A stretch of 32,000 nt of DNA from an uncultured Clostridium sp. (GTDB lineage Bacteria; Bacillota; Clostridia; TANB77; CAG-508): assembly GCA_947647595.1 (NCBI GenBank), contig CANSKZ010000009.1:21072-53071 (forward strand). Reading direction: 5' to 3'. The notes below the pieces were generated by a model, which did no database searches, was not told where the DNA came from, and saw nothing but the letters and a program-made list of their open reading frames with translations. Positions 5,097 through 5,409 of this stretch are shown in pieces; the first letter of the stretch is position 1; every line of letters starts with the position of its first letter. The position numbers were made by a program, and so were the translations under genes.

Positions 5097-5125
5097 TTGA
5101 CAGTATAATATTAATATGCTATAAT
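5097..5125 (+). promoter_or_regulatory. Sigma-A-type promoter with extended -10 for a short + strand RNA
   Basis: ttgaca at 5097-5102, a 17-nt spacer ending in tgc, and tataat at 5120-5125. Confidence 0.6.
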
Positions 5126-5131
5126 ATAAAT

Positions 5132-5199
5132 AGCTTATAAGTTCATACGAGGTCATTGAGCTTATCCGAGATTATGTGTCCGCATAATCTCTATTTTTT
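5132..5199 (+). ncRNA. Candidate type I antitoxin sRNA (locus 2), ~68 nt
   Basis: Promoter-to-terminator unit without an ORF. The terminator is gagattatg / cataatctc with loop tgtccg and a T-run (5168-5199). Segment 5143-5156 (tcatacgaggtcat) matches 5319-5332 in 13/14 positions, so it is complementary to the AUG region of the convergent small ORF. Confidence 0.5.
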
Positions 5200-5216
5200 G
5201 CATAAAAATAAGAAAA

Positions 5217-5238
5217 AGGCAGGGTGTCCGCCCTACCT
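5217..5238 (-). terminator. Intrinsic terminator of the locus-2 small ORF
   Basis: The minus strand reads aggtaggg-cggaca-ccctgcct followed by ttttcttattttt. Its loop (cggaca) is the exact complement of the sRNA terminator loop (uguccg). Confidence 0.6.
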
Positions 5239-5245
5239 ACAAAGA

Positions 5246-5332
5246 TTATTCTTTGTTTTCTTGGTCTTTATCATTTTTATTGTTAGACAATAGTAAAATG
5301 ATTAGTTTCCAGATTAAATCATATGAGGTCAT
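5246..5332 (-). CDS. Candidate type I toxin, 28 aa MTSYDLIWKLIILLLSNNKNDKDQENKE
   Basis: ATG at 5332-5330, with SD GGAGG (5346-5342) 9 nt upstream and TAA at 5248-5246. It has a hydrophobic N-terminal half and a charged tail. The MTSYDLI..LII start resembles, from memory, the Firmicutes holin-like toxin (Hol_Tox) peptides. Confidence 0.5.
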   Translation of the reverse strand: MTSYDLIWKLIILLLSNNKNDKDQENKE

Positions 5333-5380
5333 ATTATTTATCCTCCTTTCTTCAAGATTACCTTGCGAAAGGCTTTTGGA

Positions 5381-5409
5381 ATTGTACCACACATTTATTT
5401 TAATAGCAA
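5381..5409 (-). promoter_or_regulatory. Sigma-A-type promoter (TTGCTA-17-TGgTACAAT) for the locus-2 small ORF
   Basis: The minus strand reads ttgcta (5409-5404), a 17-nt spacer, then tacaat (5386-5381) preceded by tgg. The 5' UTR contains cctttc, which can pair with the gaaagg of the SD region. Confidence 0.5.

What the first reader, a model, noticed from the sequence alone, without database searches (positions are those of the whole stretch)
5097..5409. Type I TA-like locus 2: separate terminators carry exactly complementary 6-nt loops (possible kissing complex)
This locus is built like locus 1 but diverged.

The minus strand carries a TTGCTA-17-TGgTACAAT promoter, a UTR in which cctttc can pair with the gaaagg of the SD region, the ORF MTSYDLIWKLIILLLSNNKNDKDQENKE, and the terminator aggtaggg-CGGACA-ccctgcct. 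The ORF has a hydrophobic half plus a charged tail, and its start is reminiscent of Hol_Tox-type peptides.

The plus strand carries a TTGACA-17-TGcTATAAT promoter and a ~68-nt RNA with terminator gagattatg-UGUCCG-cataatctc.

The two hairpins have unrelated stems but loops that are perfect complements, as expected for a loop-loop initiation contact. The sRNA also carries tcatacgaggtcat, a 13/14 match to the antisense of the toxin's AUG region.

Both sRNAs (loci 1 and 2) begin with the shared decamer cttataagtt, which supports paralogy.
Basis: partly seen in the sequence, partly recalled or inferred. Interest (0 to 1): 0.7.

Follow-up and report, generated by a model that had tools for sequence, protein, structure and literature searches.

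The report
Toxin-antitoxin RNA pair with co-evolving kissing loops
A small cassette on a conjugative element of an uncultured gut Clostridia bacterium encodes a 28-residue peptide mRNA and a convergent small RNA, and the loops of their two separate terminator hairpins stay complementary in four diverged relatives although the loop sequence differs in each, which points to selection for an RNA loop-loop contact.

Summary
Its own proposed test, loop covariation in homologues, came out positive.

I found three further lineages of the locus in MAG and metagenome contigs: L012, type A (L091/92) and type B (L093-99). The shared loop sequence, read on the sRNA-sense strand, is TGTCCG (window), TAACCA, CCGTAAA and CTGATCA. 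Within each locus the sRNA and mRNA terminator loops are complementary over 6-7 nt. Non-cognate loop pairs share at most 3 nt, and the stems are unrelated. In type B the two hairpins lie 188 nt apart.

A second complementary block always covers the start codon region. All lineages also keep a strong sRNA promoter, a weaker toxin promoter and a 5' hairpin that pairs with the Shine-Dalgarno region. The peptide N-terminus MTSYDLIW is conserved, and most codon changes in it are synonymous.

The organisation matches the par (Fst/RNA II) type I toxin-antitoxin system of plasmid pAD1, with two differences: the shared bidirectional terminator is split in two, and the peptide is not Fst-like. It has no match in Pfam (so none to Hol_Tox or Fst), NCBIfam or Rfam.

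Transcripts, toxicity and RNA binding are untested. One close lineage (L004/L009) carries an uncompensated loop change. I rate it a new variant of a known kind, of moderate to high interest.

The parts
5097..5125 (+). Promoter of the small RNA (TTGACA-17-TATAAT, TG-extended)
   Evidence: 12/12 consensus match. The equivalent promoter scores 11-12/12 in the three other lineages.
5132..5199 (+). Predicted ~68-nt antitoxin-like small RNA. The ends are inferred from the promoter and the terminator.
   Evidence: Fold of a 5' hairpin plus terminator, -19.6 kcal/mol, z = -4.25. No Rfam match.
5143..5167 (+). Direct-repeat copy inside the small RNA. It is antisense to the toxin start codon, codons 1-5 and the GGAUAA just 3' of the Shine-Dalgarno sequence.
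   Evidence: Repeat family D2, 76% identical to 5319-5343. Perfect blocks GAGGTCAT and TTATCC in the window; 14/14 TCATATGAGGTCAT in L001-L010.
5168..5191 (+). Small-RNA terminator hairpin; loop UGUCCG at 5177-5182
   Evidence: Mean unpaired probability of the loop core is 0.69.
5217..5238 (-). Toxin-mRNA terminator hairpin; loop CGGACA at 5230-5225
   Evidence: Unpaired probability of the loop is 1.00. It is complementary to the small-RNA loop over 6 nt, or 8 nt with the closing pairs.
5246..5332 (-). ORF of 28 codons plus stop: MTSYDLIWKLIILLLSNNKNDKDQENKE
   Evidence: Homologues of 28-29 aa exist in three other lineages. The N-terminus SYDLIW is invariant, and most codon changes in it are synonymous.
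5319..5343 (-). Direct-repeat copy in the mRNA: the translation initiation region targeted by the small RNA
5342..5346 (-). Shine-Dalgarno GGAGG, 9 nt upstream of the ATG
   Evidence: Read directly from the sequence
5345..5372 (-). 5'-UTR hairpin in which CCUUUC (5372-5367) pairs with GAAAGG (5350-5345), covering the first part of the Shine-Dalgarno sequence
   Evidence: Present in the minimum-free-energy and centroid folds. An equivalent hairpin is predicted in L012, type A and type B. 24 nt of this UTR are identical between the window and L012.
5381..5409 (-). Promoter of the toxin mRNA (TTGCTA-17-TACAAT, TG-extended)
   Evidence: 9/12 match. Equivalent 9-10/12 promoters occur in the other lineages.
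5081..5458 (.). The whole module as a ~378-bp presence/absence cassette, bounded by GCTTGAA and GCTTAAA
   Evidence: L033 (neighbouring protein 97% identical) lacks exactly this segment but keeps both flanks.

Best explanation
Locus 2 is a self-contained ~378-bp cassette organised like the par (Fst/RNA II) type I toxin-antitoxin locus of plasmid pAD1.

A weak promoter drives a ~165-nt mRNA for a 28-residue peptide. Its own 5' hairpin partly covers the ribosome-binding site. A consensus promoter drives a convergent ~68-nt small RNA. The two RNAs do not overlap.

The small RNA recognises the mRNA at two separate places:
1. A 6-8-nt loop-loop ('kissing') contact between the two terminator hairpins.
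2. A 14-25-nt interrupted duplex over the start codon and the spacer next to the Shine-Dalgarno sequence, which blocks translation.

Shown here: the sequence elements, their conservation in four lineages, the co-variation of the loops and of the start-codon block, and selection on the peptide N-terminus.

Inferred by analogy with par: kissing comes first and speeds up pairing; the peptide is toxic; and the module stabilises the conjugative element by killing cells that lose it.
For: Architecture:
- Convergent promoters and two factor-independent terminators in the window and in L012, L091 and L093.
- The sRNA promoter scores 11-12/12 and the toxin promoter 9-10/12 in all four lineages.

Two complementarity blocks per lineage:
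- Start-codon block: 14/14 in L001-L010, 15 nt in type A, 13+7 nt in type B.
- Terminator loops: GTGTCCGC, TAACCA, CCGTAAA, GCTGATCA.

Loop co-variation:
- Cognate loop pairs share 6, 6, 7 and 7 nt; non-cognate pairs share at most 3.
- Among random pairs of 385 terminator loops, P(6 or more) = 0.0037 and P(7 or more) = 0.0006.
- Among 42 convergent terminator pairs in ~1.1 Mb of held DNA, only this family shares 6 nt or more; the others share at most 4.
- On a register-fixed alignment, 7 of 7 loop-loop pairs show changes on both sides, 94% of cells are paired, 0 of 500 shuffles reach this, and sliding the partner gives 23-46%.
- The complementarity stops at the loop edges and the stems are unrelated. 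The loop cores are predicted to be unpaired.
- In type B the hairpins are 188 nt apart, so overlapping transcription cannot explain the match.

Peptide: SYDLIW is invariant, with mostly synonymous codon differences (ACC/ACA/ACG, TCA/TCT, TAT/TAC, GAT/GAC, ATC/ATT).

Context: the locus lies between a VirD4-like gene and TraC/VirB4-like genes of a conjugative element, and it is a presence/absence cassette.

Precedent: the par mechanism (kissing at the terminator loops, then direct repeats DRa/DRb over the initiation site, plus a 5' stem-loop over the Shine-Dalgarno sequence) is described in PMC7472228. A terminator-loop first contact, confirmed with compensatory mutants, is shown for SR4/bsrG in PMC3834814.
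Against: - No transcript, toxicity or binding data exist. All RNA ends are predicted.
- There are only four independent lineages.
- L004/L009 carry an uncompensated loop change (CGGACA to CAGACA), which leaves 4+1 pairs. The window itself has one mismatch in the start-codon block. The contacts therefore tolerate single mismatches, or these alleles are decaying.
- The window's mRNA loop has no YUNR U-turn motif.
- In the window sRNA a U-G pair may shrink the loop to 4 nt. In type A the mRNA loop may be partly closed by G-U pairs.
- The hydrophobic stretch of the peptide is short: about 10-15 residues, and in type B it is interrupted by Q and E. This is atypical for membrane-spanning type I toxins.
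- No hit to any toxin family.
Confidence: 0.65

Rival explanations
1. The RNA mechanism is the same (a small RNA repressing a small-protein mRNA through loop-loop and start-codon contacts), but the peptide is not a toxin. It would be a small regulatory or accessory protein, and the locus would not be an addiction module.
For: The peptide has only a short, partly amphipathic hydrophobic segment. In type B it reads MTSYDLIWLLIQEILK followed by a polar tail. No toxin family matches. Type B sits between housekeeping-type genes (Mfd, an RNA methyltransferase-like protein and a histidine phosphatase-like protein, named by reading the translations; no family search was run), not on an obvious mobile element.
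Against: The full set of par hallmarks is present: convergent layout, strong antitoxin promoter with a weak toxin promoter, a Shine-Dalgarno-sequestering 5' hairpin, and a polar or charged C-terminal tail. The window copy is cargo of a conjugative element and type A lies next to an integrase. Chromosomal par homologues are also known (parEF0409).
Confidence: 0.22
2. The identical hexamers in the two hairpin loops are a DNA-level feature with no RNA-RNA contact. They could be the residue of a duplicated bidirectional terminator, the product of gene conversion, or direct-repeat binding sites for a protein.
For: On the DNA the two loops are direct repeats. Locus 1 in the same element uses a single shared terminator, so a duplication origin is plausible.
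Against: The stems have diverged completely while the loops match. The loop sequence differs in every lineage yet matches within each lineage. Duplication alone cannot explain that without selection on the loops. Gene conversion confined to 6-8 nt between unrelated stems, 25 to 188 nt apart, is unlikely. The cassette encodes no protein that could co-vary with a binding site.
Confidence: 0.06
3. These are two unrelated intrinsic terminators whose loops match by chance.
For: A single 6-nt match could in principle arise by chance. The window was picked out because of the match.
Against: Three independently retrieved lineages repeat the pattern with different sequences. Using the empirical null, the joint chance is about 0.0037 x 0.0006 x 0.0006. 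The 25 other convergent terminator pairs share at most 4 nt.
Confidence: 0.02

Closest known systems
par of Enterococcus faecalis plasmid pAD1 (Fst toxin mRNA RNA I / antitoxin RNA II) and the wider par/Fst family, including parEF0409 and Lpt
   Same: Convergent promoters. A small antitoxin RNA and a ~170-230-nt toxin mRNA. Direct repeats that make the antitoxin complementary to the toxin's initiation region. A 5' stem-loop over the Shine-Dalgarno sequence. Complementary terminator loops as a (here proposed) kissing site. A peptide with a hydrophobic N-terminal part and a charged tail. Carriage on a conjugative element.
   Different: par loci are described as sharing one bidirectional terminator, so there the whole stem-loop is complementary by construction. 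Here there are two separate hairpins, 25 nt apart in the window and 188 nt apart in type B, with unrelated stems; only the loops match. The peptide lacks the Fst PXXXG(C) motif and gives no Fst or other Pfam hit. No Rfam family matches. The window's mRNA loop has no YUNR motif.
Locus 1 of the same window (2028-2290)
   Same: Same layout and the same sRNA 5' decamer at the same distance from the -10 element. A direct repeat over the start codon. A short hydrophobic peptide with an acidic tail.
   Different: It uses a single shared bidirectional terminator at 2103-2134. Its peptide (MFKRILKTLALLIILSMIDDEE) and its repeats are unrelated.
bsrG/SR4 of Bacillus subtilis
   Same: The first contact is between the antitoxin's terminator loop and a loop in the toxin mRNA, shown with compensatory mutants.
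   Different: SR4 is cis-encoded and overlaps the 3' end of bsrG. Its complementarity is continuous, and it acts mainly through mRNA decay plus a structural change at the Shine-Dalgarno sequence.
SprA1/SprA1AS and SprA2/SprA2AS of Staphylococcus aureus
   Same: The antitoxin acts through a non-overlapping 5' domain that pairs with the ribosome-binding site and start codon. Paralogous modules do not cross-react.
   Different: Those gene pairs overlap at their 3' ends, and that overlap contributes little. No separate co-evolving terminator loops are described there.
Kissing-loop antisense control of plasmid replication (CopA/CopT)
   Same: Short complementary hairpin loops serve as the rate-determining recognition step (discussed).
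   Different: Those RNAs are fully complementary cis-antisense pairs. Here the loops are the only complementary part of two otherwise unrelated hairpins.

Membership tests
par / Fst-RNA II type I TA loci (architecture) | Convergent promoters for the toxin mRNA and the antitoxin RNA | tested here: met
par / Fst-RNA II type I TA loci (architecture) | A single bidirectional intrinsic terminator shared by both RNAs | tested here: not met
   There are two separate hairpins, 5168-5191 and 5217-5238, 25 nt apart. They are 19 nt apart in L012 and 188 nt apart in type B.
par / Fst-RNA II type I TA loci (architecture) | Direct repeats (DRa/DRb) transcribed in opposite directions, giving complementarity over the toxin initiation site | tested here: met
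   25-nt repeat 5143-5167 / 5319-5343. Equivalent blocks occur in all lineages.
par / Fst-RNA II type I TA loci (architecture) | Intramolecular 5' stem-loop that sequesters the Shine-Dalgarno sequence | tested here: met
   Predicted in the window and in three homologues. This is prediction only.
par / Fst-RNA II type I TA loci (architecture) | Complementary terminator loops that initiate a kissing complex | tested here: met
   Complementarity and co-variation are shown. Actual kissing and its order in the pairing pathway cannot be tested with these tools.
par / Fst-RNA II type I TA loci (architecture) | [quoted passage not shown] | tested here: not met
   The window loop CGGACA has no U. The motif is present in L012 (UUGG), type A (UUUA) and type B (CUGA), by direct reading of the loops.
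Fst/Ldr toxin family (peptide) | Hydrophobic domain with a PXXXG(C) motif; match to the Pfam Fst model | tested here: not met
   The peptide contains no P or G. No Pfam or NCBIfam hit at E up to 10.
Hol_Tox (Pfam) | Match to the Pfam Hol_Tox profile | tested here: not met
   No Pfam family at E up to 10 for any of the four peptides.
Type I toxin-antitoxin systems (general) | The peptide is toxic when over-expressed and the RNA neutralises it | not testable with these tools
   This needs an expression assay. There is only indirect support: the architecture, the location on a mobile element, and the conserved coding sequence.
Type I toxin-antitoxin systems (general) | Small hydrophobic peptide with a potential transmembrane segment and a charged C-terminus | tested here: inconclusive
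   A polar or charged tail is present in all four peptides. The hydrophobic stretch is only ~10-15 residues, and in type B it is interrupted by Q and E.

The most novel reading that the evidence does not exclude
This is a previously undescribed family of type I TA-like modules in uncultured gut Clostridia. Antitoxin-target recognition has been reduced to two short, physically separate 'address' elements. One of them is a 6-7-nt terminator-loop code that co-evolves rapidly and is mutually orthogonal between lineages. That would be natural evidence that the kissing step itself, and not terminator sharing, is what selection maintains in par-like systems. The module is coupled to a peptide with an invariant MTSYDLIW N-terminus that is too short to be a classical transmembrane toxin and may act in a new way.
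Probability: 0.4. Interest if true: 0.75.

Novelty: new variant of a known kind. Interest (0 to 1): 0.62.

Why it matters
In par-type systems the terminator loops are complementary simply because both RNAs use the same terminator. Evolution therefore cannot show whether the kissing contact itself is under selection.

Here the terminators are split and their stems are unrelated. Four lineages still keep the loops complementary while changing their sequence. This is a natural compensatory-mutation experiment, and it isolates the loop-loop contact as the selected feature.

It also provides:
- Four naturally orthogonal loop pairs that could be tested directly or reused in RNA device design.
- A new small-peptide family, absent from protein databases because such ORFs are not called.
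- Another example of RNA-based maintenance cargo on conjugative elements of uncultured gut Clostridia.

Tried and rejected
Searches that found nothing:
- Pfam, NCBIfam and PHROGs scans of the peptides. Only two sub-threshold PHROG hits, E = 0.07 and 0.11.
- Rfam at gathering threshold and at E up to 10.
- Plasmid (PLSDB) blastn: the near search found nothing. The distant search found only an irrelevant 36-nt match in Melissococcus.
- tblastn of the peptide against plasmids and phages.
- IMG/VR scans with a UTR pattern and with the peptide alignment.
These ORFs are simply not called.
- Full-text search for SYDLIW.

Attempts to find intermediate alleles:
- I looked up contigs encoding 79-88%-identical homologues of the neighbouring 234-aa protein (scanned). 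None carries a locus-2 homologue. They hold acetyltransferase or other cargo at that position, so the cassette is sporadic.
- nhmmer with the single locus found only L012 among the 80 genome loci.

Other:
- I tried to fetch the Lactobacillus Lpt locus (AP012543) to compare its terminator arrangement. The record is not held.
- I rejected full-length duplexfold energies as evidence, because they are dominated by unrealistic long-range pairings.
- I considered a flanking direct repeat as a sign of site-specific insertion. The local alignment is weak (score 26), so only a 7-nt microhomology is reported.

Full report
**1. The observation**

On the plus strand there is a perfect TG-extended sigma-70 promoter at 5097-5125. 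It is one of only five 12/12 matches in the 32 kb, and three of the five belong to small-RNA loci at 2028, 5097 and 5502. It is followed by a terminator hairpin at 5168-5191 and a T run. The predicted 68-nt RNA folds into a 5' hairpin plus the terminator (-19.6 kcal/mol, z = -4.25).

On the minus strand there is a weaker TG-extended promoter at 5409-5381 (9/12). In the 5' UTR, CCUUUC pairs with the GAAAGG of GAAAGGAGG in both the minimum-free-energy and centroid folds (z = -4.36). GGAGG lies 9 nt upstream of the ATG at 5332. The 28-codon ORF encodes MTSYDLIWKLIILLLSNNKNDKDQENKE. The terminator lies at 5238-5217.

The two loops, UGUCCG and CGGACA, are exact complements. The run is 8 nt if the closing pairs are counted. 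TGTCCG occurs three times on both strands of the window, and two of these are the loops.

A 25-nt imperfect direct repeat (5143-5167 and 5319-5343, 76% identical) makes the small RNA antisense to the start codon, codons 1-5 and the GGAUAA next to the Shine-Dalgarno sequence.

**2. Context**

The locus lies between a 234-aa ORF and TraC-like and VirB4-like genes, downstream of a VirD4/TrwB-like ATPase. This is the transfer region of a conjugative element (Pfam marks on identical proteins). Relatives of the 234-aa protein are found in uncultured gut Clostridia and Bacilli MAGs.

Ten metagenomic contigs are about 97.6% identical across the region. In all of them the antisense 14-mer is a perfect 14/14 match; the window has one C-A mismatch. 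Two of them (L004, L009) carry C5229T. This turns the mRNA loop into CAGACA, with no compensating change in the small-RNA loop.

L033, whose neighbouring protein is 97% identical, lacks the ~378-bp segment at about 5081-5458 but keeps both flanks, locus 1 and the downstream small-RNA-like unit. Locus 2 is therefore a discrete presence/absence cassette. Other relatives carry different cargo at this position.

**3. Diverged homologues**

nhmmer and tblastn against 80 genome loci found one diverged copy, L012. Its toxin is (GTG)NSYDLIWQLVALLLSNDKDNENQSKNKE.

A metagenome scan with the peptide alignment found two more lineages:
- Type A (L091, L092): MTSYDLIWQLINILLDNKSEAKETSKEED.
- Type B (L093-L099): MTSYDLIWLLIQEILKDNSSENNQKNNEK.

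All of them have a strong small-RNA promoter (11-12/12), a weaker toxin promoter (9-10/12) and two terminator hairpins. Each is also predicted to have a 5'-UTR hairpin that pairs CCUUU(C/U) with the G-rich Shine-Dalgarno region.

Type A lies next to a tyrosine-integrase-like gene and Spo0A. Type B lies between Mfd, an RNA methyltransferase-like gene and a histidine-phosphatase-like gene, which looks like a chromosomal context. These gene names come from reading the ORF translations; no family search was run on them.

**4. The covariation test**

Read on the small-RNA strand, the loops of the small-RNA terminator and the toxin terminator are:

| Lineage | Small-RNA terminator loop | Toxin terminator loop |
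|---|---|---|
| Window | TGTCCG | TGTCCG |
| L012 | cTAACCA | TAACCAa |
| Type A | CCGTAAA | cCCGTAAAa |
| Type B | CTGATCA | CTGATCAga |

- The RNA loops are therefore complementary over 6, 6, 7 and 7 nt within each locus. Non-cognate combinations share at most 3 nt.
- The stems are unrelated, and the complementarity ends at the loop boundaries. In types A and B it is exactly the 7-nt small-RNA loop of the minimum-free-energy fold. The loop cores are predicted to be unpaired, with probability 0.6-1.0.
- An empirical null from 385 distinct terminator loops in related DNA gives P(6 or more) = 0.0037 and P(7 or more) = 0.0006 per pair.
- Among 42 convergent terminator pairs within 300 nt in all held DNA, only this family reaches 6 or more. 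The other 25 pairs share at most 4.
- I built a register-fixed alignment with artificial anchors, choosing the register myself, which is a caveat. On it, all 7 loop-loop pairs show changes on both sides, 94.3% of cells pair, 0 of 500 shuffles reach this, and sliding the partner gives 23-46%.
- In type B the hairpins are 188 nt apart, so overlapping transcription cannot be the source of the complementarity.

**5. The second contact and the peptide**

In each lineage the only other substantial complementarity covers the start codon region. It is TCATATGAGGTCAT in the window lineage, GTCATAAGATGTCAT in type A, TCATGATATGAAT plus AGTCATA in type B, and GTATGAA plus GTTGCAC in L012. It follows the toxin's own sequence, including its synonymous changes.

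Codons 2-8 differ between lineages almost only at synonymous sites (ACC/ACA/ACG, TCA/TCT, TAT/TAC, GAT/GAC, ATC/ATT). The single replacement is T to N in L012. This is good evidence that the ORF is translated and that its N-terminus matters. The rest of the peptide keeps its length (28-29 aa) and a polar, charged tail, but varies in sequence.

**6. Mechanism**

The organisation matches the par paradigm described in PMC7472228. That paradigm has convergent promoters, complementary terminator loops that start a reversible kissing complex, direct repeats that then sequester the initiation site, and a 5' stem-loop that holds the Shine-Dalgarno sequence until pairing is complete.

I therefore propose the same two-step pathway here: terminator-loop kissing, then the duplex over the start codon, then a block to translation. 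The cassette would serve to stabilise the conjugative element.

Shown: the elements, their conservation and their co-variation. Inferred: the order of the steps, toxicity and addiction.

**7. Membership**

The locus fails two defining par/Fst features:
- It has no shared bidirectional terminator; there are two hairpins with unrelated stems.
- Its peptide is not Fst-like. It has no PXXXG motif and no Pfam or NCBIfam hit.

It also matches neither Hol_Tox nor any Rfam family. It works like par but is not a member of the Fst family.

Locus 1 in the same window (2028-2290) has the classical shared terminator. The same element therefore carries both forms, which suggests that the split form derives from the shared one and that selection kept only the loops.

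**8. Caveats**

- There are four independent lineages only.
- All RNA ends are predicted.
- One close lineage has an uncompensated loop mismatch.
- The window mRNA loop lacks a YUNR motif.
- The hydrophobic segment is short, so a classical pore-forming or transmembrane toxin is not assured.
- I found no paper describing this peptide or split co-varying terminator loops. The held library is incomplete, and I could not inspect the Lpt locus.

**9. Verdict**

This is a new variant of a known kind. Its main value is as a natural compensatory-mutation series showing that the kissing contact itself is under selection.

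Noticed in passing
window 2028-2290: Locus 1 is a par-like pair with a single shared bidirectional terminator (2103-2134). The toxin ORF is MFKRILKTLALLIILSMIDDEE (2205..2137, minus strand). 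The direct repeat TTTAAGTATACGTTT(T)AAAC covers its start codon. A strongly diverged allele (MIKIILKLAILLLQAIHFIIDMIEE) sits at the same place in L001-L003, L005 and L007.
   Followed up: partly
window 5502-5580 (+): A third small-RNA-like unit. Its 12/12 TG-extended promoter is 76% identical over 34 nt to the locus-2 sRNA promoter, and it has a similar terminator tail (families D1 and D4) with a terminator at 5548-5573. It is retained in L033, which lacks locus 2. Its 5' AGGUAGGG equals the 5' arm of the toxin-2 terminator, and 13 nt of it are complementary to plus-strand 12643-12655. It may be an orphan antitoxin paralogue.
   Followed up: partly
window 5624-5690 (-): A strong 14-bp minus-strand terminator at 5657-5624, next to the block CATCGATAAAACTTATATTAACTTTCAGC, which is also present in L012 and L033. 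This implies an unannotated minus-strand transcript coming from about 5660-6100, where no convincing ORF was seen.
   Followed up: no
window 6004-6033 (+): TTGACCTCATATTACTCTAAG resembles the toxin start (ATGACCTCATATGA, MTSY...) but lies on the opposite strand and ends after 9 codons. It may be a relic of another toxin copy or a decoy site for the small RNA.
   Followed up: no
window ~6077-6100; L001 4838-5350: Near-identical metagenomic contigs carry an extra ~510 bp with a 125-aa ORF of unknown function that the window lacks.
   Followed up: no
window 5064-5156 (-): The ORF list shows a 30-aa ORF, MTSYELISYLYY..., running backwards through the small-RNA gene and its promoter. It is a by-product of the direct repeat (a copy of the toxin start) and not a likely gene.
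   Followed up: yes
L012 4572-4600: A second perfect 12/12 TG-extended promoter lies 77 nt upstream of the small-RNA promoter in L012. It could be a tandem promoter or a further small RNA.
   Followed up: no
L100-L106, L114: In related conjugative elements the position downstream of the 234-aa gene holds other cargo, acetyltransferase-family genes, instead of the RNA cassette. This intergenic site appears to be a cargo hotspot.
   Followed up: partly
window 16791-16864, 22724-22820, 27462-27534: Two tRNA genes and a small bacterial SRP RNA show that the right half of the window is ordinary chromosome. The conjugative element is therefore probably integrated, with one end somewhere between about 12 and 17 kb.
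   Followed up: no
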